The translations under genes and the position numbers were made by a program. Positions 5,524-61,164 of a DNA stretch of 64,000 nucleotides are shown here, piece after piece (the first letter of the stretch is position 1; each line of letters opens with the position of its first letter). The DNA lies in the IMG/VR virus record IMGVR_UViG_3300025648_000015, positions 52,146 to 116,145 of that record; one strand, written 5' to 3'. Source of the DNA: a virus. The notes below the pieces were generated by a model, which was not told where the DNA came from, ran no database searches, and worked only from the letters and a program-made list of their open reading frames with translations.

Positions 5524-8500
5524 TGCCAATTTTACCAAACAATACAGACCCCTCAAAAGAATACGTAACGCAATCGGTTAATCCGCCTTTAACTATTGAC
5601 GGTGTTGTCTATAATAAAATTTATTCACACACTGGTGTAATTGATACTTTATCAAATATTCAAAGCACTGGATATTCAGATCCCAATGTAAACATTTTTA
5701 ATCAATCAAATAGTATTATTAGTTTTGATCCACAACTACAAAAATCATGGATCTCAAGTACTGATTTTGGTGGACCTACAAGTAATCCTGTAGTAATTAC
5801 TTACGATATTGTAAATACTACTTATTACAACAATATTGTTTTTGATGTGCTTAACGTACCTTGTTTTGTTGAGATACTAGACGAGAATGATAATCCATTG
5901 CCCGGTTCCTCAACATTCTCAATTGCCGGTGGTGGAGACATTTACACAACTACTAATTGGTTGCGTTTAGAATACAATGCACCAACTAACCCAACACCAG
6001 CTACAGTATCAGGTACAAATGGAACAAGTAATTTTACTTATCCATTAACTGGTGTAAGCGAAATATCTATTCGCATTACAAGGAATAAAACTGTTCAATC
6101 TAACTCGGGTAATGGAAATACTTTAACAAATATTGCTTATTCAGTAGGTGTACAAAACTTTAGTATCAAATTAATTGTTAAAAATAATTCTGATATTCCT
6201 GCCGCGGTTGTTAGTGGTTCTAATTCTATTATTACACAAAATCGTTTTAATTTTGTAGAAACATATTCTTATTCAGTTAATAGTGTTTCTAATATGTTTG
6301 TTAATGATTCAACATATTGGAAATGTGCTCCACAACCTGTAAAAGACTCAATCGTATATTTTTATATGAAAGTTAGCGATCCAACGCCAAAAACAATTAA
6401 TAGACTATACATTGATCCATTGTACAGTGGTTGCAAATTTAATGTCTATTACACTATTCAATCAACAATTAGTGGTACAGTAGATCCAAGCACTTTCTCT
6501 TGGACGCCTATTCAAAGAGATTTTTCTTTAAGAAAAGGTTTATACGATTTACCAACCGTAAGCTGCACGTATTTAAAAATTGAATTTATAAAACTTATAC
6601 CAGAAGTATATGACCTGCCATTGGATTCAATTAATAAAACTATTAATGTTTTTCCTTATGATGTTGAAAATTACTTCTCTCAACTAGAAGCAAATATTAT
6701 TGACGGTAATGCAGTAAAATATGCAATTACTAACCCAGGTGCTATTGGTGTTTCAACTATCTTAAACCAACAGATTAGTAACTCAACTATCCTGGGTAAT
6801 GCAACTGCAAATATTGGTAATAATTCTACTTTTCCAAGTCTTGCAAATCTTAACTCAACACAGATTAATAATCCTACTACACAATCTATAAATACAAGTT
6901 CATATATCATTGACCCAAGTATTAGTTACAAACTATTAGATTCTAATGGTAATTATAACTATAGTTCATATAATGAATTCCTTCAAAGAAGATTTCCAGA
7001 CAATCGTGTCCATGTTTATAATCAAGTAAACATTAATCAAACTTGGCACCAAGCCTACTTTACTGGTATTAGATACATTACTTCATTTTTTGAAAATAAT
7101 TTTGATGATCTACGTGGAACACCACAAAATTTTATTTCAAGCAATGGATCAAACACAGGATTCTCTAGCCAAGGTGTTGATTACATTAACCTTAATGTTG
7201 ACGAAATTGCAGTAACACCATGGTTCTCTACCATTGATAGTTTTAACGCATTTAATATTGGTGGTTTAACTACTGACTGGCAAAGTTTTTTAACTCAAGG
7301 CAATACAATTAGCAATGATAATACATTGATGAATAACATTAGTGCTGCAACTTTAAGCACCATGCTCATTAATGCTAGCGGTACAAAAATAGGTACGCTT
7401 GGTACAAGTACTATTTATGCAATATCTGGTCAACCTAATACTCAATATGGTATCCAATCAGCAGCGTATTCTTTTGGCAATAATATTCTTAATTACTACA
7501 ACGCTAATTTCCTACCATACTCTGGATCAATTTTAAATTGGTCAGGTCTTGGTGGTACTACAATAACTGGTACATCTGTAAATTATTATAATCCATCAAC
7601 GGGTCTTAGTGGCACTGCTAGCGGACTAAGTGTTAGCGGTGGGAACTATACAGCAGCATTTAACTTTACTATACCAAACGTCAATGCAAGTGGTATCCAA
7701 ACTTGGCAATTGCAATTTGGTGCACCATCGTTTGGTGTAGTTGGTTATGCAAGCTATACACAAGCCGGTGGGTTTAATTACTACTTTTTAACCAATGTCC
7801 AAGCTTCTGGTTCTACTAATATTAGTCTAAAAACTAGATTTATTAATCCAACAACTAATAATGTAATCTCTGGAACTACTGTGAGTGGTAGTACAGTTGC
7901 TGTAACTTCTGGATTTAATATAGCTACTGTTACTGGAACTAATTATAGCACTTCAATACCATCAAATACAATTCAATTAGTGATTAGTGGTAGCGCAAGC
8001 GTACCATATTCACTATATCAATTAGGTGTTTTCACTCAACCAACTAATAAATGGATTGGGCCATCCGACCATAGCAATATGAGAGTTAGTGGAACAGTAC
8101 GTGTACTATTGCCAAAAAATAATGCAGGAACTTATAGAGCAAGTCTTATTGGCACTGATGTATTAGGTAACTTATCTGAACTAGCTTATAAAATTTATAC
8201 ACCAGGAACTATGCCAATAAATACTTGGTTCGATGTAGAACTAGAAGGATTTACCGGTAGCAATTACGTATCATTCGTAATGGTTATAAGGCAGATTGTA
8301 CCAACAATTAACGAAATTTTTTATGTAAGTATGCTTGCACCATTCTATCACCCAGTGCGTTATGAATTTACTAATACACAAAACAACAATATTACTGGAA
8401 AAACAGGTTGGTATCCAATCACTCTTGGTGTAAATGATGCAAATAGTTTTATAAGTACTGCATCTGGATTACCAGCCAGTGGAATACAAATACGTATGAC

Positions 8501-8766: not shown

Positions 8767-10626
8767 ATGCCTTCAGAGAAGACTATATATGTTCAAAAGA
8801 GTAAATTACTCAATGGAGTACTAAGATACAGCTCCTTGGACCCTGAAGTCAAGAAAAAACTTTTGATGCTTGATAATTACGGTACTTTAAAAAACCGTGA
8901 CAGGATTGATGAGTTTGCTCAGCTTGTAGAAAATAATGATTATTCTTTAATTTTTGAGGATAAAGAAGCTGAAAACGATTTTATAGATTTACAGATGTGC
9001 AGTTCTGAACCATATGAAGTTAATAGCCCTTTTTTGGTTGAGAACCATTTATTCCCTTTTCAGCATGTTGGACTTAATTATGTCTGGAAGCAAATGCTCT
9101 CAGAAAACCCACAAGTATTAGTCCAGTGGGATACAGGTGCAGGCAAAACTTTATTGAGTTGCCTCACTAGCCAGAAACTGTTTGATCATGGTGCCATTGA
9201 CAAGGTGCTGGTCTTTTCAAAGAAGATCAAACAATACGACTGGGAACAGGAGTTTAAGCGGATGACACACTTAACTGTTGAACGTGTAACAGAAAAGATG
9301 ACTCGCAAAGCTCGCCACGCCATGTACGAAAAAAACACTAACCAAGTATTAGTTCTTAACTACGAAAAAGTACGTGAAGGCAATATGGCTAAAGTGCCAG
9401 GCCAGAGAAAGAAAGTTAAGTCCTACGACCGTACAGATTTATTGCAAATTCTGAACATGATCAAGGGGCAACGTGTACTTATCATTATTGATGAAGCACA
9501 AAAAATCAACAGCGGAGAAAGTCTGTTGGGAGAAGGTTTTCATACTCTTATTAACACACCGGATAGCGAAACAAAAGCTCTAGCATTAACGGCTACACCA
9601 TATACGACTAGCCCATTGAACATCCGTAATATTTTTTCTGTAGTAGCCCCTGGTATTCCTGACGTTAGTGACATGAAACGTGATGTTTTTAAACGTTTTT
9701 ACGGTAAAGAGTTCAGCATGTATAGCAATGGTTTTGTACAAGAACTATATGTAAAAGAATGGGATCGTGCAAAACTTTCTTTATTAGGTAAGAAACACGA
9801 AAATTGGACTCACATTGCAATGAAAAGCGATCCCATTATTGCTGCACAGTTCCCTGAAAGCACTCCAAAAAAGCTTGTATATGAACTTTCTGATATTGAC
9901 CGTGCTATTTATGATTGGGCTGAAGAACAAGCTCGTGAACGTTATAATCCAGATAACCAAGTTGCTAACTGGAGCTATATTGACGTACTCCGTATGATTT
10001 GCAATACCACTGAAGGTCTTAAAAACAGTAATGGTAAGTTTGCTAAAGAAATTGTTGCAGAGTTTGGTAATGACATCAGCATCCAGAATAGTGCAAAATA
10101 TCAGTTGATTATAAATAATCTTGACGTTTATTTTGAAAAAAATGAAAAAGTTGTTTTGTTTACATATTGGACAAACGGCACTCTATTTCCATATTACGAA
10201 GCGTTAAAAGCACAATACCCAGATGTTCTTATTTTGCCTATCTGGGGAGTTGGAATGAGCACTGATCAGTCAGCAGAAAACATGAAACTATTTAATGCTG
10301 CTAAAGGTCCAGCTGTATTAATTACAAGTGATGTACTCCAAGAAGGTGCAAACCTTTATGCACCATACCTTTGGAACATTGAAGTACCACGTACATATGC
10401 AGATTACAAACAACGTAAAGATCGTATCAATCGTGCCGATTCTCGCTCAAAAGGAGTTGACAAAACATGGGTATATCGTCCAGTAGCTGTAAATACTATT
10501 GAAGAAAGAGTAGATGCAAAAGTTTTGAGACGGAGAGCGGAAGCAGAAGCAATTCGTGGTATTATAGACGAGCATGCTGACATGGAAGACACTATTGATG
10601 TAACACCGTTTGGATTTTTGTTTTAA
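8767..10626 (+). CDS. SNF2/SF2-family helicase
   Basis: LFPFQ Q-motif, DTGAGKT Walker A, IIIDEAQK Walker B, LTATP motif III, EGANL motif V, QRKDRINR motif VI. Confidence 0.9.
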   Translation: MPSEKTIYVQKSKLLNGVLRYSSLDPEVKKKLLMLDNYGTLKNRDRIDEFAQLVENNDYSLIFEDKEAENDFIDLQMCSSEPYEVNSPFLVENHLFPFQHVGLNYVWKQMLSENPQVLVQWDTGAGKTLLSCLTSQKLFDHGAIDKVLVFSKKIKQYDWEQEFKRMTHLTVERVTEKMTRKARHAMYEKNTNQVLVLNYEKVREGNMAKVPGQRKKVKSYDRTDLLQILNMIKGQRVLIIIDEAQKINSGESLLGEGFHTLINTPDSETKALALTATPYTTSPLNIRNIFSVVAPGIPDVSDMKRDVFKRFYGKEFSMYSNGFVQELYVKEWDRAKLSLLGKKHENWTHIAMKSDPIIAAQFPESTPKKLVYELSDIDRAIYDWAEEQARERYNPDNQVANWSYIDVLRMICNTTEGLKNSNGKFAKEIVAEFGNDISIQNSAKYQLIINNLDVYFEKNEKVVLFTYWTNGTLFPYYEALKAQYPDVLILPIWGVGMSTDQSAENMKLFNAAKGPAVLITSDVLQEGANLYAPYLWNIEVPRTYADYKQRKDRINRADSRSKGVDKTWVYRPVAVNTIEERVDAKVLRRRAEAEAIRGIIDEHADMEDTIDVTPFGFLF

Positions 10627-21953: not shown

Positions 21954-23234
21954 ATGGACATTGAAAAGTCGATAGTAAAGCATTTTGACAAGTTAGAAAG
22001 TTTCAACACAATTTGGGATAAGGGGGTACGTAGCGAACACTTCTTTGATGATGGTGTACGTGAACTGTTTGATTACAGCCTTGACTATTACGTTCGTAGT
22101 GAGTTCAAGAGTACAGTAACTCGTGACTTCCTAGAGACTAAATTTGAAGACTATTTTGTTCGTAATGAGTGGCCAGAAGAAGAATACTTAGTTGGTGTTC
22201 TTATCGAGGAACTTATGACTAAGTACCGCAAGGCAACCACCCAGAGCGCACTGCTTAAGGCAGCTAATGCGCTTGAGGAAGATCCTGAAGTCGGTATTAG
22301 TATGGCACTTAATAGCCTTACACGTATCCAAAGTGACACAAGTACACGTGAGCGTATTGAAATTTATGGTGATGGTTACGAACGTCGTGTTAATGAATAC
22401 ATGGACGAAGTATCTAACCCAACCAAAGATAAGAAGGGAATCTATCTTGGTTGGGATGCATTGAATGACCATATGTACGGCATCCAGAAAGGTGAACTTG
22501 CGGTTGTCGTAGGTATTCCTAACGTTGGTAAGTCATGGGTTGGATCGGTTATTGCTCTTGAAGCAGCACGACGTAAAACTAAAGTTTACTTTGCATCATT
22601 AGAGCTTCGTAAAGAACTAACTCTAATGCGTCTTGATTGTCTTGTTAGTGGTGTGCCGTATGCTCGCTACGAACGTGGACAACTAACTCCTAATGAGTTA
22701 AAACGTCTTAAGGAAGCTCGTGAAGAAGTTATGGAGTTTGGTGAATATCTTCTTATTGACTCACCTAGTCGTAAGTCTGAACGTAGCGTTATGGAGTTGT
22801 ACTCAAAAGCTAAGCACTGGGGTGCTGAACTAATGGTTGGGGACCAATTGTCATGGATCTCAACCGAGAAGAGTTATGGTTCAGCAAGTAACTTCCAAAC
22901 TCTACAGATGTCTGAAGTGATCACTGACGTAGCTTCTACTAACCGAGAGATGGGTATGGCTTCTGTATGGCTTGCTCAGTTCAACCGTGAAGCTATGAAG
23001 AAGAAGAATGGTCGTGGTGGTCTAGCTCAGATTGGTCTTAGTAGTACCATTGAACAAATTGTGGACATGGCTATTGGTATCGGTGCTACCAAAGAAATGA
23101 AGCAGCAAGAAGCACTTGTTATGGATATCCTTAAAAGCCGTCGTAGTGACCTAAAATCATGGATGATGGGTTTTGAGCTAAAGGATCGTACATCACTCCA
23201 AGTTGTTCGTGAATACGAGGATAATAATGATTGA
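21954..23234 (+). CDS. dnaB: Replicative DnaB-like helicase
   Basis: G...GEL.VV.G.PNVGKS, SLEL, GDQL, LAQFNR, IEQ..D, K.R. Confidence 0.9.
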   Translation: MDIEKSIVKHFDKLESFNTIWDKGVRSEHFFDDGVRELFDYSLDYYVRSEFKSTVTRDFLETKFEDYFVRNEWPEEEYLVGVLIEELMTKYRKATTQSALLKAANALEEDPEVGISMALNSLTRIQSDTSTRERIEIYGDGYERRVNEYMDEVSNPTKDKKGIYLGWDALNDHMYGIQKGELAVVVGIPNVGKSWVGSVIALEAARRKTKVYFASLELRKELTLMRLDCLVSGVPYARYERGQLTPNELKRLKEAREEVMEFGEYLLIDSPSRKSERSVMELYSKAKHWGAELMVGDQLSWISTEKSYGSASNFQTLQMSEVITDVASTNREMGMASVWLAQFNREAMKKKNGRGGLAQIGLSSTIEQIVDMAIGIGATKEMKQQEALVMDILKSRRSDLKSWMMGFELKDRTSLQVVREYEDNND

Positions 23235-49711: not shown

Positions 49712-49773
49712 TAGTCTAGCCTCATCGGTGTAGAGACAACTACCTTCTACATACGCCTCACGGCGTTTCGGCT
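49712..49773 (-). ncRNA. Hammerhead ribozyme HH1 (type II, U4C core variant)
   Basis: AGCC-GAAA-CGCC(GTGA)GGCG-TA^TGTAGA(AGGTAGTTGTC)TCTACA-CCGATGA-GGCT; loop TAGTT can pair with downstream GACTA. Confidence 0.85.
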
Positions 49774-49776
49774 TTA

Positions 49777-50019
49777 TTATAAAGCGTCTTTTAAATCACA
49801 GAATAACTTATGAAAATGATCCATTTGTTCTCCCATTGCATTGATTGCTTTATTAAACATATCTGATAAACTTTCATAAAAAGTGATATCAAGAGTGTTT
49901 TTGTTTTCGTTATAGATTTTAAACCCATTTAACAACTCATCTAAACGATAACCAATCGTAGAAATATTGTTGATAAGTTCGCTTACTTTCTCTAACTTTT
50001 CTTCATTACTTACTGTCAT
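49777..50019 (-). CDS. Hypothetical protein
   Basis: Stop 4 nt before HH1. Confidence 0.6.
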   Translation of the reverse strand: MTVSNEEKLEKVSELINNISTIGYRLDELLNGFKIYNENKNTLDITFYESLSDMFNKAINAMGEQMDHFHKLFCDLKDAL

Positions 50020-50260
50020 ATTACCTAACTTAAATATTTAATGCAACCAATTTAAAATTAATGTTTCATACTTACTATTTTACCTCCATAGGTTTATATT
50101 CACTACAATATGTCTCAAACTTGTTTTTACGAGTCCAAGATCCACATTCACGGCATTCTCCAGACTCTAAATCTTCAAATTCTGGATTCTGACTAATGTT
50201 CCATAAATGTGCTTCATATTCATGATCGCACCAACAATCTGGTTCATTCATATTTGCTCC

Positions 50261-50467
50261 TTACTTGATATTATCTAATGCATTATTAAGTATTTCAGTT
50301 ATTTCTTTTTCTTTATCTCCTGTTTCTGTATTTTGATCAGGAAAAACCCATTCATCAATATTAGGAATGTAAACAGTTTTACCTTTTTCAAATTTAGCAA
50401 AAGTAGTAGGCCAATCTATAAGCCAACCATTTTCTTCTGACCATTTTACTACACAATGATATTCCAT
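50261..50467 (-). CDS. Hypothetical protein
   Basis: Operonic. Confidence 0.6.
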   Translation of the reverse strand: MEYHCVVKWSEENGWLIDWPTTFAKFEKGKTVYIPNIDEWVFPDQNTETGDKEKEITEILNNALDNIK

Positions 50468-50792
50468 TATGTTTCCATTTCTATAATTATTTCTTCTAGT
50501 TGATTACAACGATCTAATAAATTAGATATAACATCTTTAGCTTCTGCTAATGTAGTTGGTTCTGTTAAACCAAAGTCATTTAATGTTAATTCTATCATTA
50601 TTAATTAAATCCATAATGCTCAAAGATTTGAGCTCTAGCATCTTCAAGTTCATTATTGAGGTCTTGCAATGTACGATTATCAATACTCTTATCATTACCA
50701 AACCAATCAATTAGATCTTGTCTAGTTACTTCATTCATTTTACTCCTTCTCTCTTATATTTGCTACTATGCGTAATGCTTCTGTTCCTTACT

Positions 50793-50853
50793 ATTAGCCT
50801 ATCTTATCAATGCATGGTGGCTAATCCATACAGACGCCTCCCGGCGTTTCGAT
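50793..50853 (-). ncRNA. Hammerhead ribozyme HH2 (type II, U3-A8 covariant core)
   Basis: ATC-GAAA-CGCC(GGGA)GGCG-TC^TGTATGG(ATTAGCCA)CCATGCA-TTGATAA-GAT; 7-bp pseudoknot ATTAGCC/GGCTAAT. Confidence 0.88.
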
Positions 50854-50859
50854 TCTTTA

Positions 50860-51042
50860 CTATTCTATTTCCTCAATAATTATATCATTGATAGTATTTT
50901 TAATAGCAAATCCATTGTGTTCTAACCATCCCAATGCTTCTTTTTCAATTACATCGTCATCTTCAGAGTCAGATGTAATCGTAGTTATGAGCACAGCATA
51001 GTCAAACACAAACTGTACATTATATATATATGTTTTACTCAT
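50860..51042 (-). CDS. Hypothetical protein (cassette gene between the direct repeats)
   Basis: SD AAGGAG lies inside the repeat. Confidence 0.65.
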   Translation of the reverse strand: MSKTYIYNVQFVFDYAVLITTITSDSEDDDVIEKEALGWLEHNGFAIKNTINDIIIEEIE

Positions 51043-51199
51043 TCTCCTTCTCTCTTATATTTGCTACTATGCGTAATGCTTCTGCAAATCCTTGAGCAAA
51101 TCCATTCTCAAAATCAGTTTGCTTAGCCATTGCTAAGTTAATGTGATGACGAGTTTCATTACTCAATTGATAAAAAGATTTGTCTAATTTTTTACCCAT
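51035..51199 (-). CDS. Hypothetical protein (54 aa, not in track)
   Basis: MGKKLDK...AEALRIVANIREKENE; its 3' end is the duplicated 41 bp. Confidence 0.6.
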   Translation of the reverse strand: MGKKLDKSFYQLSNETRHHINLAMAKQTDFENGFAQGFAEALRIVANIREKENE

Positions 51200-51201
51200 T
51201 A

Positions 51202-51618
51202 TTATTCCTTTGTTGTAACTAAACTATTAAGATAAATAAATACCTCAAAAGGTACTGGCTCTAGTTCCCAATTCCATACAACATCGTCTTCGTTGTAGTT
51301 TTGCCAGTCAACTTTATCATAGTTAACTACCTTAATACCAACAGTTTGGTCAATGTGATTTACAACAACTAACTTCCATGTATCACCATGAAGAGAAAGT
51401 CCGATACCATATCCAGTATCAGACATTACATCATCTTTAATCATTTCACTGAAGATAATACGGTTAAGGTATTCGTCATCACTCCAACGACCCTTGCCAC
51501 GTACTATAGCGTCAGCTACAACGTTTTCTAGATGACTAGCTCCCCAATGGGTATATAGATAGATAGAATGCTCTGATCCATATGTACCAATAAGTTGTAC
51601 TTGTCCACGGTCTCCCAT
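51202..51618 (-). CDS. Conserved phage hypothetical protein (MGDR...YLYTHW.G family)
   Basis: MGDRG, IYLYTHWG, RW.D..YL.RII, TGYGI. Confidence 0.7.
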   Translation of the reverse strand: MGDRGQVQLIGTYGSEHSIYLYTHWGASHLENVVADAIVRGKGRWSDDEYLNRIIFSEMIKDDVMSDTGYGIGLSLHGDTWKLVVVNHIDQTVGIKVVNYDKVDWQNYNEDDVVWNWELEPVPFEVFIYLNSLVTTKE

Positions 51619-51672
51619 GATTACCTACTTTCTTACTTGTTTGTTTATTTGTTTAACGTCTCCCGACGTAGT

Positions 51673-51713
51673 GCCTTGAGTAGGAGTCGAACCTACTCTA
51701 CGACCATCAAGGC
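51673..51713 (-). ncRNA. Anticodon-less tRNA mimic TL1, followed by a GGGA hairpin (51656-51669)
   Basis: GCCTT-GATGGTCGTA-GAGTAGG-TTCGACT-CCTACTC-AAGGC. Confidence 0.8.
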
Positions 51714-51719
51714 TACCAT

Positions 51720-52103
51720 TTACCACCAACTATCGTAATATATTTCCATATCTTGTCCAATAGCTTTCATAGCATCATCAATAAACTTAAGGTCAATTTC
51801 TCTATCTTCTGGTAAACTTTCACCAAAGAAAAAACCTTGAGTTACTGGGAGTTTTTCATGTATTACAGCATGTCTTAAATTAACAAGGTCTTGAAATGTT
51901 ACTCGAACTGGTTGACAGTTAAAAACACCTTCTCCACCTTTACTTTCATATAACTTTTCCATCCAACCTTGAATGTTAGGATGTTTACGCCATTGAGCAA
52001 TTAAAAAGACTTTATCTTCAGATTGTTCATGAGTCCAAACATAACTTAAATCTGTATTGTTTGGATGAGGCATAACAGCATATGCATATTGGTCTAATCC
52101 CAT
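51720..52103 (-). CDS. Conserved phage protein (MGLD.Y...WRK.....W...Y.SWW family)
   Basis: MGLDQY, WRKHPNIQGW, FNC, LP.T.GFFFG, YYDSWW. Confidence 0.75.
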   Translation of the reverse strand: MGLDQYAYAVMPHPNNTDLSYVWTHEQSEDKVFLIAQWRKHPNIQGWMEKLYESKGGEGVFNCQPVRVTFQDLVNLRHAVIHEKLPVTQGFFFGESLPEDREIDLKFIDDAMKAIGQDMEIYYDSWW

Positions 52104-52153
52104 TATGTTTCCTTTCTTACTTATTTATTTACTTGTTTGTGTCTCCCGACAGC

Positions 52154-52194
52154 ACCCCAAGATAGAATCGAACTATCTTACAACCATTTGGGGT
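52154..52194 (-). ncRNA. Anticodon-less tRNA mimic TL2, followed by a GGGA hairpin (52140-52151)
   Basis: ACCCCA-AATGGTTGTA-AGATAG-TTCGATT-CTATCT-TGGGGT. Confidence 0.8.
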
Positions 52195-52202
52195 TACCTT
52201 AG

Positions 52203-52859
52203 TTAGCTAGGCCAACTAATAGGAATTTCTTTACCATTAATAACAATGATTTTAGGTGTTTCCATTGCTTTATCAACAGCTTCAGATACTTCTTTAATTG
52301 TTTCCATCATAATAGATGGCATTGCTGCTAAACGTTGTTTCACCTCAGCTTCAACTGCTTGTTGCATTTCTGCATCAGACATAGTTGGAGCTAAAAACTC
52401 TTCCATAATTGGATCTTCTTCAATAGCATCTTCTGTTGTTACTGCTGCAGAAGTTGTTGCAGAAGGAACAGAAGTTTTATTTATATAACTTCCGTTAATA
52501 ATATAATATGGATAAAGTAAGGATTTCTTACCAGGAGCACCTTCATTTAACGATATAGACAACATCTTAGTAAGGAATTCTTCACGACCAGCTTCTTTGC
52601 TTGTGTGTTTAGAATTCACATCTTTGATGTAATCTTCAATTACAGCTTTAGCTGCTTTGTGATCAGTAAAGTAGAATCTACCAATTACACGACGAGCACG
52701 AGCATCTTCTGAATTGTACCACGTACAACGTACAAATACTTCAGAATAATAATCTCCGTGTTCTTTGTGTACAGTAAATGCTAGGTCTACAACATCACGA
52801 GTACGGTTGGAAGTCCAACCAGCACCATTAGCTTTAGCTACCCAAGTCATTTCTGACAT
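52203..52859 (-). CDS. Hypothetical protein
   Basis: Long ORF with A-rich leader. Confidence 0.7.
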   Translation of the reverse strand: MSEMTWVAKANGAGWTSNRTRDVVDLAFTVHKEHGDYYSEVFVRCTWYNSEDARARRVIGRFYFTDHKAAKAVIEDYIKDVNSKHTSKEAGREEFLTKMLSISLNEGAPGKKSLLYPYYIINGSYINKTSVPSATTSAAVTTEDAIEEDPIMEEFLAPTMSDAEMQQAVEAEVKQRLAAMPSIMMETIKEVSEAVDKAMETPKIIVINGKEIPISWPS

Positions 52860-52886
52860 ATTATCTCACTTTCTTTTTCTTACTAT

Positions 52887-52946
52887 TGACCTATCTCATC
52901 AGTGCATGGAGGTCATCCCATACATACCCCTCCCGGGGTTATCGAC
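52887..52946 (-). ncRNA. Hammerhead ribozyme HH3 (type II, GAUAA insertion variant)
   Basis: GTC-GATAA-CCCC(GGGA)GGGG-TA^TGTATGG(GATGACCT)CCATGCA-CTGATGA-GAT; pseudoknot TGACCT/AGGTCA. Confidence 0.88.
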
Positions 52947-52949
52947 TAA

Positions 52950-53108
52950 TTAATCGATTGACTGCAATGGTACACCAAAATAGTCATTAAGACCTTCTTG
53001 TACACCACAAGGTGAACAAATATCAGTCTTGTTATCAACCCTAGACAAAGCAGGATATCCTGTCCAAGATTCTTTACAAAGTGGACATATAAATGTTTTT
53101 ACTGTCAT
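52950..53108 (-). CDS. Small Zn-finger protein (CPLC...PALSR.DN.T.IC..CG; 52 aa, not in track)
   Basis: Common phage motif; ATGA overlap. Confidence 0.7.
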   Translation of the reverse strand: MTVKTFICPLCKESWTGYPALSRVDNKTDICSPCGVQEGLNDYFGVPLQSID

Positions 53109-53305
53109 GATTTTTCTATCATCCCTTCAGGCATTTTACAATAGCCATTTTCTATTAAATCCATAGCCATACGACCATAGTGTCCTTGTAGTTTCCAAGC
53201 CATACCATTGTCAATTAACTCTTGAAAAAGTTGGATAATTTCATTACCATCAAGTTCATCTTGTTCATAACTTATTATTTTATTTGTTAAATCATTAATA
53301 ATCAT
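53105..53305 (-). CDS. Conserved phage protein (FQ.LID.G.AW.LQG.YGR.A family)
   Basis: Motif recognisable. Confidence 0.7.
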   Translation of the reverse strand: MIINDLTNKIISYEQDELDGNEIIQLFQELIDNGMAWKLQGHYGRMAMDLIENGYCKMPEGMIEKS

Positions 53306-53694
53306 TATTTATCTTCTTCAAGTTGCCAATTAAATTTATCATCTTGTACTTGATTTAATTCATCATACAATGATTGAGCCATTTTTGCATGTTCTTCAGG
53401 CGTAGAAGGTACTTGTGACCTAAAATCAACACCAAATACAACGCCTACGTTACTAGCAAATGTAATAAGGTTTTGTAAAACCTCAGTACCTGCTTTAACA
53501 GCTTGGTCAAATGTATGTTTGAAGTCATCTGACTCTACATAACTATTAAACTCTGAAGGAAGTTCACCAGTTACATATTGACGATAAGCTTCAATGGTTG
53601 TCTGAATTGTGATTTGCATTTTAATACACATCATCAAATTATCAACTTCATTTTTAATGAGTTGTAATTTTAATTCATCTGACATGTTGTCCAT
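53305..53694 (-). CDS. Hypothetical protein
   Basis: Leader follows HH4. Confidence 0.65.
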   Translation of the reverse strand: MDNMSDELKLQLIKNEVDNLMMCIKMQITIQTTIEAYRQYVTGELPSEFNSYVESDDFKHTFDQAVKAGTEVLQNLITFASNVGVVFGVDFRSQVPSTPEEHAKMAQSLYDELNQVQDDKFNWQLEEDK

Positions 53695-53723
53695 CTTACT
53701 CTCTTTCTTGTTTAACTATTATC

Positions 53724-53784
53724 TGACTTGTCTCATCAGTACCCAAGTTGTCATCTTAGGTATACCCCTCACGGGGTTATCGAC
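53724..53784 (-). ncRNA. Hammerhead ribozyme HH4 (type II, GAUAA insertion variant)
   Basis: GTC-GATAA-CCCC(GTGA)GGGG-TA^TACCTAAG(ATGACAA)CTTGGGTA-CTGATGA-GAC; pseudoknot TGAC/GTCA. Confidence 0.88.
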
Positions 53785-54772: not shown

Positions 54773-54799
54773 AATTACTCCTTACTTGTTTTGTTTGTT

Positions 54800-55320
54800 T
54801 AAGTGGGCATTTTAACGTCATACCCAGGACGGAGAGTTACAAAAGCTCACTCACAAGGCTAGTGGTTACCTTCACACCACTCAGGTCGTTGGCTCACCTA
54901 TACCACCAACAGGTCGCTAATTAAGGTTTAGACTGACCTCCATGAGCTTCCCCTCATGATGAGTATGTAGTACGATACAAGCGTGTGGGTGCGTTTGAGT
55001 CTGCACCACAATTAGACTCGGTCCCATATAACCGATAAAAGTTATATGGGATTGCCACGTTTTTTGGGTCAGTGACCTAGACCTCATAGTGTGTTGTTAA
55101 GGATGTTACTTCCTACCTAAGCTTCCCCTTTAGGCTGGGTTTGTGAATACAAGACTTGCAACTAGGCACTCTGGATTAATACAACATCCAATCTGGCGGG
55201 TTGACATAGCTGGCATCACAGATCAATAAAGCCCCCTGGCCTATCCAGAAGGGCTATGGAGATGCAACAACAAGAAGGAAAAGCACTCTCCATAACCCAT
55301 CTCAATAGGCTATGTAGAGA
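54800..55320 (-). ncRNA. Large structured ncRNA candidate (tandem pseudoknots, anti-SD loop)
   Basis: ~550-bp ORF-free gap dense in hairpins and loop-to-downstream pairings. Confidence 0.6.
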
Positions 55321-56086: not shown

Positions 56087-56150
56087 ATTACTCCTTTTAT
56101 TGCTTACTTACAGGACCAATTACGGCCCACTGCATACCAAATAGTATGCA

Positions 56151-56216
56151 TGGCACCTGAGGGTCGCTTGATAGACCCCCAGGTCTCTGAGTTTATATAA
56201 CGTTACTCAGGGAACG
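56151..56216 (-). ncRNA. H-type pseudoknot followed by an 11-bp minihelix ending in GCCA
   Basis: CGTT(CCCTGAGT)AACG-TTATATAA-ACTCAG; ACCTGGGGGTC(TATCAAGC)GACCCTCAGGT-GCCA. Confidence 0.6.
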
Positions 56217-56221
56217 CGTGA

Positions 56222-58476: not shown

Positions 58477-58555
58477 GATTTACTTACTTTCTTCTTGTTT
58501 ATTTTAGTTTGTAGTGCTTCCTTAGCACCAGGGCAGTCACTTATGTGACTCCGGC

Positions 58556-58599
58556 ACTGCAGGTGGGAATCGAACCCACAACATCCTCCATGCTGCAGT
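58556..58599 (-). ncRNA. Anticodon-less tRNA mimic TL3
   Basis: ACTGCAG-CAT(GGAGG)ATG-TT-GTGGG-TTCGATT-CCCAC-CTGCAGT-GCC. Confidence 0.8.
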
Positions 58600-59095: not shown

Positions 59096-59142
59096 TATGT
59101 CCTCCTTCTTTGTTTGTTGTTTTTGTTGTGCCTCCCGGCAGC

Positions 59143-59183
59143 ACCCCAGGCAAGAGTCGAACTTACCTTACGACCATCGGGGA
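59143..59183 (-). ncRNA. Anticodon-less tRNA mimic TL4, followed by a GGGA hairpin
   Basis: TCCCC-GATGGTCGTA-AGGTAAG-TTCGACT-CTTGCCT-GGGGT-GC-TGCC(GGGA)GGCA. Confidence 0.8.
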
Positions 59184-59190
59184 TACCGTA

Positions 59191-60441: not shown

Positions 60442-60613
60442 TATAGTGGTAAAGAGAGTGCCTTAGATATGTGTAAACATGTCTCAAAATATGCCCATTT
60501 TTATAATATATAGGAAATAAACGGCCACATAGCATAATAAGCTATTACCTTACTATGATCCGATCTTATGCCCTAAGTAAATAAGCTATTATATGTATAT
60601 CGGATCGATATAA

Positions 60614-60629
60614 TGTTCCACGTGGAACA
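60614..60629. promoter_or_regulatory. parS site
   Basis: TGTTCCACGTGGAACA, perfect palindrome matching the bacterial parS consensus. Confidence 0.85.
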
Positions 60630-60713
60630 TACTGACTAACATATGCGGAGATCCAATACACCCGTATATTATTTCCTTACTAGGGTATTAGCTTATTAGC
60701 ATAATAGCCTATA

Positions 60714-60729
60714 CGTTCCACGTGAAACA
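60714..60729. promoter_or_regulatory. parS site (second copy)
   Basis: CGTTCCACGTGAAACA, exactly 100 bp from the first. Confidence 0.8.
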
Positions 60730-60742
60730 TATCGAACTTGAA

Positions 60743-61051: not shown

Positions 61052-61099
61052 GATTATATTCCTTTCTCTTACTTATATTTAGTTTCCCCATAAGGGAGC

Positions 61100-61144
61100 A
61101 CCTCGGAGGGGAATCGAACCCCTCCAAGCCCACCAGGGCGAGGT
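61100..61144 (-). ncRNA. Anticodon-less tRNA mimic TL5
   Basis: ACCTC-GCCC(TGGT)GGGC-TT-GGAGGGG-TTCGATT-CCCCTCC-GAGGT-GC. Confidence 0.82.
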
Positions 61145-61164
61145 TACCTACTACTTACAACCTA

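What the first reader, a model, noticed from the sequence alone, without database searches (positions are those of the whole stretch)
49712..53784. Four type II hammerhead ribozymes within 4 kb, all with a loop-I/3'-tail pseudoknot
All four have stems I and III closed and a short open stem II (3-4 bp). Each has a different but complementary loop-I/downstream pair: TAGTT/GACTA, ATTAGCC/GGCTAAT, TGACCT/AGGTCA, TGAC/GTCA. Predicted cuts on the minus strand lie between 49752/49751, 50833/50832, 52925/52924 and 53763/53762. Cleavage would leave the stem III GNRA hairpin capping the upstream mRNA 3' end and stem I at the 5' end of the downstream mRNA.
Basis: partly seen in the sequence, partly recalled or inferred. 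Interest (0 to 1): 0.8.

Follow-up and report, generated by a model that had tools for sequence, protein, structure and literature searches.

The report
Four variant-core hammerhead ribozymes, phage operon
Four self-cutting hammerhead RNAs of an already known phage type lie between genes of a freshwater phage operon and probably chop its long transcript into shorter messages; the only unusual point is that none of the four has the textbook catalytic core.

Summary
Four type II hammerhead motifs lie on the minus strand at 49773-49712, 50853-50793, 52946-52887 and 53784-53724. A relaxed descriptor finds 5 hits in the 116-kb phage contig against 0.02 expected. A covariance model built only from unrelated phage hammerheads scores the four at 51-67 bits; the next best hit scores 10.

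HH1 has U4C, HH2 has the paired U3/A8 swap, and HH3 and HH4 have an extra U in GAAA (U13a). This is why Rfam scores them below its threshold. Each deviation is a documented natural variant (Perreault et al. 2011, PMC3088659).

A syntenic relative has hammerheads at the same four gene junctions. Their stems and pseudoknots differ but still pair.

Type II hammerheads with this pseudoknot, clustered around single genes in phages, are already described, and this scan has noted phage hammerheads on other DNA many times. I therefore call these new members of a known kind. Self-cleavage and mRNA processing are inferred, not shown. The same operon also holds tRNA-like minihelices and other folded gaps.

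The parts
49712..49773 (-). HH1, type II hammerhead. Stem II 49773-49770 with 49721-49718. GAAA 49769-49766. Stem III 49766-49762 with 49757-49753 (GUGA loop). H17 = A at 49752, cut 49752/49751. Stem I 49751-49746 with 49734-49729. Core box 49728-49722 is CCGAUGA (U4C). Pseudoknot 49742-49738 with 49716-49712.
   Evidence: (53.3 bits, E 1e-12)
50793..50853 (-). HH2, type II hammerhead. Stem II 50853-50851 with 50803-50801. GAAA 50850-50847. Stem III 50847-50843 with 50838-50834 (GGGA loop). H17 = C at 50833, cut 50833/50832. Stem I 50832-50826 with 50817-50811. Core box 50810-50804 is UUGAUAA (U3 paired with A8). Pseudoknot 50825-50819 with 50799-50793.
   Evidence: (67 bits, E 2e-16); an identical copy lies in relative L122 at 7212-7276
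52887..52946 (-). HH3, type II hammerhead. Stem II 52946-52944 with 52895-52893 (one G-U). GAUAA 52943-52939 (U13a insertion). Stem III 52939-52935 with 52930-52926 (GGGA loop). H17 = A at 52925, cut 52925/52924. Stem I 52924-52918 with 52909-52903. Canonical CUGAUGA 52902-52896. Pseudoknot 52915-52910 with 52892-52887.
   Evidence: Rfam RF02276, 24 bits, below threshold; 64.3 bits
53724..53784 (-). HH4, type II hammerhead. Stem II 53784-53782 with 53732-53730; its first base is the last base of the upstream stop codon. GAUAA 53781-53777 (U13a insertion). Stem III 53777-53773 with 53768-53764 (GUGA loop). H17 = A at 53763, cut 53763/53762. Stem I 53762-53755 with 53747-53740. Canonical CUGAUGA 53739-53733. 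Pseudoknot 53753-53750 with 53727-53724 (4 bp only).
   Evidence: Rfam, 15 bits; 51.5 bits
50743..51084 (-). Insertion carrying HH2. A perfect 41-bp direct repeat (51084-51044 and 50783-50743) brackets one 60-aa gene (51042-50860) plus HH2.
   Evidence: exact repeat in the window, and the empty site in relative L128, where the 54-aa gene is followed directly by the 45-aa gene; the same insertion is in L122.

Best explanation
These are four genuine type II hammerhead self-cleaving ribozymes of the phage/prophage kind. They sit in four intergenic gaps of one long, co-directional block of small genes on the minus strand of an uncultured freshwater phage.

Proposed mechanism (inferred): as the polycistronic RNA is made, each motif folds. 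The pairing between loop I and the tail just after stem II holds stems I and II side by side. This compensates for the 3-4 bp open stem II and for the non-consensus cores. The RNA then cuts itself after H17.

The upstream message is left with a 21-27 nt tail that ends in the GNRA-capped stem III hairpin and a 2',3'-cyclic phosphate. The downstream message begins with a 5'-OH and the stem I hairpin, 59-94 nt before its start codon. Both ends should resist exonucleases and 5'-end-dependent decay. The operon would thus be cut into separately stable, separately translated pieces.

Shown here: the motifs, their statistical significance, their family membership, and their conservation with compensating changes. 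Inferred: cleavage, its rate, and its effect on mRNA fate.
For: (1) All four sites fit the full descriptor; the whole contig gives 5 hits against 0.02 expected.

(2) Covariance model R1 was built only from 15 hammerheads of other viral contigs. It scores the sites at 67, 64, 53 and 52 bits (E 1e-12 to 1e-16), and the best other hit in the 64-kb window scores 10 bits.

(3) Contig L122 is a syntenic relative; its neighbouring proteins are 45-100% identical. It carries hammerheads at the same four junctions. Three of them have different stem I, stem II and pseudoknot sequences that still pair. Over the 8 distinct copies from the window, L122 and L127, 95% of cells are paired and 13 of 21 pairs changed on both sides. 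That includes 3 of 6 pseudoknot pairs, and the pseudoknot was not part of the model.

(4) The more distant relatives L127 and L128 keep one hammerhead at the junction between the homologues of the 132-aa and 218-aa genes.

(5) Each core deviation has precedent. PMC3088659 reports natural U3/A8 covariation, a U13a insertion in GAAA among active variants, and a U4C viroid variant that works in vivo. In my own sample of 90 distinct phage type II hammerheads, 8 carry U4C. U13a also occurs in the unrelated GC-rich contig L121.

(6) PMC3088659 showed cleavage of all members of three tandem prophage hammerhead arrays transcribed in vitro, and cleavage in vivo in E. coli for one.

(7) The four gaps contain no terminator-like site on the gene strand, and promoter-like sites in the region do not exceed shuffles, which fits read-through transcription.
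Against: No copy has the consensus core. Rfam's curated model does not reach its threshold for any of them. According to PMC3088659, U4C 'considerably decreases activity in vitro', so HH1 may cleave slowly. The HH4 pseudoknot is only 4 bp, and the HH1 pseudoknot is not significant on its own. Because many sequences were selected with descriptors that require pairing, part of the pairing statistics is true by construction. There is no direct evidence of transcription or cleavage.
Confidence: 0.8

Rival explanations
1. The motifs are hammerhead-derived but attenuated on purpose. The core variants make cleavage slow, partial or ion-dependent, so the phage sets the ratio of long to short transcripts, or the timing of expression, rather than simply cutting everything.
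For: None of the 8 distinct hammerheads in this phage lineage (window, L122, L127) has a fully canonical core and stem II. In contrast, 31 of 35 hammerheads from other phage contigs that were not picked by my search pattern are canonical. The deviations are of five different kinds (U4C, U3/A8, U13a, an extra U after A9, a near-absent stem II), so they are not a single inherited accident. The abstract of PMC7151607 says a single core mutation can make a hammerhead favour Mn2+ over Mg2+.
Against: U3/A8 and U13a are described as compensatory or minimally disruptive, so they need not slow the reaction. The copies are paralogues and orthologues, so the count of 8 overstates independence. No kinetic data exist.
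Confidence: 0.25
2. The motifs are inactive relics. They persist as stable intergenic hairpins (insulators, RNase barriers or decoys) and no longer cut.
For: Every copy departs from the consensus core, and Rfam scores are below threshold. PMC3088659 also lists hammerhead-like sequences with core changes that were inactive.
Against: All residues known to be essential are kept in all copies and in the relatives: G5, A6, A9, G12, A13, A14, A15.1-U16.1 and a non-G H17. The weak stem II and the pseudoknot matter only for catalysis, yet both are maintained through compensating changes. The deviations seen are the ones reported as tolerated.
Confidence: 0.1
3. The hammerheads are passengers of small mobile gene cassettes. 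They mark cassette borders and spread by recombination, with little benefit to the phage.
For: HH2 and one 60-aa gene form a 301-bp insertion bracketed by a perfect 41-bp duplication, and relative L128 has the empty site. At the junction upstream of the 129-aa gene, L122 carries a hammerhead whose stem I and pseudoknot are those of window HH3, which points to module exchange.
Against: Mobility explains how a hammerhead arrives, not why fold and core are kept with compensating changes at the same junctions in relatives whose proteins are only 30-60% identical. This rival is compatible with the best explanation rather than opposed to it.
Confidence: 0.1

Closest known systems
Type II hammerhead ribozymes with a loop-I/3'-tail pseudoknot, clustered around single genes in prophages and phage metagenomes (Perreault et al. 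2011, PMC3088659; Rfam Hammerhead_II RF02276)
   Same: Same permutation (stems I and III closed, stem II open and short). Same pseudoknot, placed immediately after stem II. Same intergenic position, with several copies flanking single genes or short gene blocks on the coding strand. Stem III and its GNRA loop are near-identical to those in at least 120 viral contigs.
   Different: All four copies carry a core deviation, so Rfam does not call them. Two of the four have the rare U13a insertion, which was 0 of 90 in my background sample (that sample was gathered around a pattern containing GAAA) and occurred in 2 contigs in a dedicated search.
Natural hammerhead core variants: U3/A8 covariation, U13a insertion, U4C (PMC3088659 and the viroid work it cites)
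   Same: HH2 shows U3/A8, HH3 and HH4 show U13a, and HH1 shows U4C, at exactly the positions described.
   Different: In the literature these are scattered single cases. Here three kinds occur together within 4 kb of one operon, and a syntenic relative adds a fourth kind, an extra U after A9.
Engineered ribozyme insulators (RiboJ-type hammerhead plus hairpin placed upstream of genes); this comparison rests on my own knowledge
   Same: A self-cleaving hammerhead placed just before a ribosome-binding site, leaving a defined 5'-OH end with a hairpin on the downstream message.
   Different: The engineered parts are built from a satellite-RNA hammerhead, which to my recollection is type III. Here the elements are natural, type II, and also leave a hairpin on the upstream message.

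Membership tests
Hammerhead ribozyme, type II (Rfam RF02276; Perreault et al. 2011) | Three helices around a junction, with stems I and III closed by loops and both chain ends in stem II | tested here: met
   Descriptor scan. Covariance-model alignments. Stems I and III are in the minimum-free-energy fold of all four. The 3-bp stem II is too weak to appear in the fold of HH3 and HH4, and in HH2 the fold predicts a competing 5'-strand pairing instead.
Hammerhead ribozyme, type II (Rfam RF02276; Perreault et al. 2011) | Essential core residues G5, A6, A9, G12, A13, A14, the A15.1-U16.1 pair and a non-G H17 at the cleavage site | tested here: met
   All are present in all four copies. H17 is A, C, A and A.
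Hammerhead ribozyme, type II (Rfam RF02276; Perreault et al. 2011) | Strict consensus boxes CUGANGA and GAAA with no change or insertion | tested here: not met
   HH1 has U4C, HH2 has U3/A8, and HH3 and HH4 have U13a. The paper that defines the type counts each of these as a natural variant inside the class, with activity reported. I therefore read this as variation within the family, not exclusion from it.
Hammerhead ribozyme, type II (Rfam RF02276; Perreault et al. 2011) | Pseudoknot of four or more pairs between loop I and the nucleotides just after stem II | tested here: met
   The pseudoknots are 5, 7, 6 and 4 bp, in one register. Three of six pseudoknot pairs show changes on both sides among the 8 lineage copies, and 3 of 5 do so among 15 unrelated phage copies.
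Hammerhead ribozyme, type II (Rfam RF02276; Perreault et al. 2011) | Score at or above Rfam's gathering threshold (37 bits) | tested here: not met
   HH3 scores 24 bits and HH4 15 bits; HH1 and HH2 are not reported. A model built from 15 phage type II hammerheads found here gives 51-67 bits.
Hammerhead ribozyme, type II (Rfam RF02276; Perreault et al. 2011) | Site-specific self-cleavage giving 2',3'-cyclic phosphate and 5'-OH ends | not testable with these tools
   This needs a transcription and cleavage assay, or end-mapping of the RNA.

The most novel reading that the evidence does not exclude
The hammerheads may be one of several interchangeable 'punctuation' modules in a phage operon where nearly every intergenic gap (about 49.7-62.5 kb, minus strand) holds an RNA element that creates or protects an mRNA end. 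The module types would be variant-core hammerheads, anticodon-less tRNA-like minihelices (candidate RNase P/Z sites), a small conserved pseudoknot just before the ribosome-binding site, and larger unknown folds. On this reading the consistently non-consensus hammerhead cores of the lineage would be tuned for partial or conditional cutting. That would make this a bacterial-virus counterpart of mitochondrial tRNA punctuation, built from mixed parts.
Probability: 0.35. Interest if true: 0.65.

Novelty: new member of a known kind. Interest (0 to 1): 0.35.

Why it matters
The finding adds four well-supported hammerheads, and four more in a relative, that the standard catalogue search misses. This shows that Rfam's type II model under-detects phage copies with tolerated core variants. 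One short stretch of natural sequence holds three documented core variants, each with a syntenic counterpart for comparison. That makes it a convenient natural test set for asking how a strong pseudoknot buffers core changes. It also places hammerheads next to tRNA-like elements in the same operon, which gives a concrete and testable setting for the long-open question of what phage hammerheads are for. Type, pseudoknot and clustering themselves are not new.

Tried and rejected
1. Rfam at gathering thresholds over the whole window found only a tRNA. At permissive E-values only HH3 and HH4 appear as weak Hammerhead_II hits, and no twister, pistol, hatchet or twister-sister hit appears anywhere in 48.5-64 kb.

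2. blastn of the region against deposited phage genomes: no match.

3. The search for related loci with the 218-aa protein: no relative. An exact pattern for the U13a copies with fixed stem III: no match. A looser pattern then found L121 and L122.

4. Sequencing runs: no RNA holder is listed. Only freshwater DNA metagenome contigs hold the stretch, so nothing can be said on expression or RNA ends.

5. Laying contigs of four runs gave two loose ends that looked like hammerheads replacing other modules. Both dissolved on checking. The one at 50834 is the L122-type hammerhead of the junction before the 227-aa gene; it aligned only through the shared stem III. The one at 52122 is the L127/L128 hammerhead; it aligned only through the similar ribosome-binding region, and in those contigs it sits before the homologue of the 218-aa gene, not in place of the tRNA-like element. 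I therefore found no junction where a hammerhead and a tRNA-like element replace each other.

6. The fifth descriptor hit (+ strand, 21992-22055) is rejected as chance.

7. Promoter and terminator scans of 48-64 kb do not exceed shuffles.

8. The supplementary files of PMC3088659 hold no text on U13a or U4C beyond the main text.

9. I recalled a resemblance between the small pseudoknot before some ribosome-binding sites and the plant-virus coremin motif. The text of PMC6546385 describes a different hairpin geometry (3-bp stem, 4-nt loop), so this remains an untested lead.
Full report
SOURCE. The window is bases 52146-116145 of a 116,145-base IMG/VR virus contig. Near-identical DNA occurs in about twenty freshwater metagenome runs. 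The finding lies in a long run of small co-directional genes on the minus strand, next to a terminase gene on the other strand. Most of these genes have no family. The 227-aa protein after HH1 carries DUF2786.

OBSERVATION. I wrote a descriptor for the type II permutation. It requires a stem II strand, GAAA or GANAA, a stem III hairpin closed by A-U, a non-G H17, a stem I hairpin, a relaxed seven-base box, and the second stem II strand. It also returned one weak extra hit on the + strand. The loops on stem III are GUGA or GGGA. Stem II has 4, 3, 3 and 3 pairs. The loop-I/tail pairings have 5, 7, 6 and 4 pairs and begin one or two bases after stem II.

In 100 dinucleotide-preserving shuffles the relaxed descriptor gave 0.02 hits per contig against 5 observed, and the strict descriptor with pseudoknot gave none against 4 observed. 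Stems I and III are in the minimum-free-energy fold of every copy. Taken singly, the pseudoknots have tail-shuffle P values of 0.12, 0.003, 0.009 and 0.055.

None of the four has the consensus core. HH1 reads CCGAUGA (U4C). HH2 reads UUGAUAA, so C3 and G8, which pair in the active fold, have both changed to U3 and A8. HH3 and HH4 read GAUAA, an extra U between A13 and A14. This explains why Rfam finds nothing at its thresholds and gives only 24 and 15 bits to HH3 and HH4.

FAMILY. The stem III sequence of HH1 and HH2 is very common in viral contigs. Among these loci my descriptor found 85 distinct complete type II hammerheads, many with several per contig. From 15 of them, none from this phage, I made an alignment and a covariance model, R1. 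In that alignment 92% of cells pair and 14 of 20 pairs change on both sides, the pseudoknot included. This is partly by construction, because the sequences were chosen for pairing.

With filters off, R1 scores the four window sites at 67, 64.3, 53.3 and 51.5 bits. The next best hit in 64 kb on both strands scores 10.2 bits. Other contigs carry 8 to 11 R1 hits within a few kilobases (L041, L065, L097, L004), so four in 4 kb is not exceptional.

RELATIVES. A looser pattern for the U13a form found two contigs. L121 is an unrelated GC-rich phage contig with a U13a hammerhead that has different stems. L122 is a syntenic relative of the window phage: 19 neighbouring proteins match at 43-100% identity in the same order. 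It has exactly four R1 hits, at the same four gene junctions.
- Before the 129/131-aa gene, both phages have U13a. The L122 copy, however, has the stem I and pseudoknot of window HH3, and its outer stem II pair is A-U rather than G-C.
- Before the 218/210-aa gene, both have U13a, but stem I is entirely different and the pseudoknot is shifted by one base.
- The HH2 copy is identical in both.
- Before the 227/229-aa gene, L122 has a canonical CUGAUGA followed by an extra U. Its stem I, stem II and pseudoknot all differ from window HH1, which has U4C.

The more distant contigs L127 and L128 (proteins 30-60% identical) keep one hammerhead between the homologues of the 132-aa and 218-aa genes. It has a bulged stem I and almost no stem II.

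For the 8 distinct copies of this lineage aligned to R1, 95% of cells pair and 13 of 21 pairs change on both sides. That includes 3 of the 6 pseudoknot pairs, which the model does not contain. Sliding the partners by one to three columns drops pairing to 32-45%.

CORE VARIANTS. Perreault et al. 2011 (PMC3088659) describe the following:
- type II hammerheads as common in bacteria;
- a consensus pseudoknot between loop I and the tail after stem II that is needed for fast cleavage;
- arrays of hammerheads flanking single genes in prophages, which cleaved in vitro, and in vivo in one case;
- natural U3/A8 covariation;
- a U13a insertion in GAAA, expected to point out of the core;
- a U4C viroid variant that is weak in vitro yet sufficient in vivo.

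In my own sample of 90 distinct R1 hits from 100 other contigs, 8 have C at position 4 and about 9 have an extra U after A9. Among the 35 that do not contain my search pattern, 31 are canonical and none has U13a or U3/A8. Each deviation here is therefore precedented. Still, a lineage in which none of 8 distinct copies is canonical is unusual. The copies are related, so this is not a clean statistic.

MECHANISM. The hammerheads begin 0-7 nt after the upstream stop codon; in HH4 the stop codon's last base is the first base of stem II. Each ends 20-60 nt before a purine-rich ribosome-binding region. After cutting, the upstream RNA would keep 21-27 nt past its stop codon and end in the stem III hairpin. 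The downstream RNA would start with the stem I hairpin, 59-94 nt before its start codon. The gaps contain no terminator-like site on the gene strand, and promoter-like sites do not exceed shuffles. I infer co-transcriptional self-cleavage that divides a polycistronic transcript into pieces with structured, exonuclease-resistant ends. Perreault et al. proposed this reading for such arrays. Cleavage, its rate and its consequences are not shown here, and no RNA data set holding this phage was on offer.

CONTEXT. HH2 and a 60-aa gene form a 301-bp insertion bracketed by a perfect 41-bp duplication of the end of the preceding gene plus its ribosome-binding site. L128 shows the uninterrupted junction. 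Hammerheads can therefore travel with single genes.

Other gaps of the same operon hold anticodon-less tRNA-like minihelices, each followed by a GNRA hairpin. One reaches 23.9 bits on the Rfam tRNA model, and the minihelices are conserved in L122 and L128. The gaps also hold a small conserved pseudoknot and larger conserved folds of unknown kind. I found no junction at which a hammerhead and a tRNA-like element replace each other. Two apparent cases from metagenome contigs dissolved on checking.

VERDICT. These are new members of a known kind: phage type II hammerheads with the known pseudoknot, in a known kind of array. The modest added value is threefold. Three documented core variants occur together with syntenic counterparts. 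Standard annotation misses all four. And they share an operon with tRNA-like elements. This scan has noted phage hammerheads on other DNA many times: 92 notes in at least 86 genomes match the words searched.

Noticed in passing
window 51656-51735, 52150-52215, 58555-58599, 59100-59190, 61060-61160 (minus strand): These are anticodon-less tRNA-like minihelices: a 6-7 bp acceptor-like stem, a short linker and a T arm with a UUCGA-type loop. Most are followed by a GNRA-capped hairpin, and all lie in intergenic gaps of the same operon as the hammerheads. One reaches 23.9 bits on Rfam tRNA and 20.8 on mascRNA, both below threshold. Counterparts sit at the same junctions in L122 and L128. They are candidate RNase P/Z processing sites.
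   Followed up: partly
window 50743-51084 (minus strand): A perfect 41-bp direct repeat brackets one 60-aa gene plus HH2. Relative L128 has the empty site, while L122 shares the insertion, so a gene-plus-ribozyme unit was inserted as a cassette.
   Followed up: yes
window about 54800-54830 (minus strand); L127 5368-5434; reverse complement of L128 at 2296-2340 and 10297-10370: A small conserved hairpin recurs just upstream of ribosome-binding regions. Its 8-nt loop (CUGGGUAU) can pair with a CCCA a few bases downstream of an A-rich linker, giving an H-type pseudoknot. In L128 it occupies the junction where the window has a tRNA-like element. I did not test this.
   Followed up: no
window 54773-54916, 55088-55215 and 56087-56221 (minus strand): These gene-free gaps of 128-144 nt are conserved at the nucleotide level in L122 and L127, although the neighbouring proteins are only 45-76% identical. 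They are probably structured RNAs. No Rfam family matches.
   Followed up: no
window 60536-60742 (minus strand); reverse complement of L128 at 2702-2815: This gap holds two near-identical palindromes (GTTYCACGTGGAAC type), conserved in L128. They may be operator or promoter-associated sites within the operon.
   Followed up: no
L013, L019, L023, L029, L076 (listing): Several otherwise well-formed phage type II hammerheads read CUGAAGU or CUGAAUAU where CUGANGA is expected, which suggests a change at A9. This may be a further recurrent core variant.
   Followed up: no
window 21992-22055 (+ strand): This is a weak hammerhead-like descriptor hit: a 3-bp stem III, a 4-bp stem I with a 22-nt loop, and U3 without A8. 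Covariance model R1 does not support it. I treat it as chance.
   Followed up: yes
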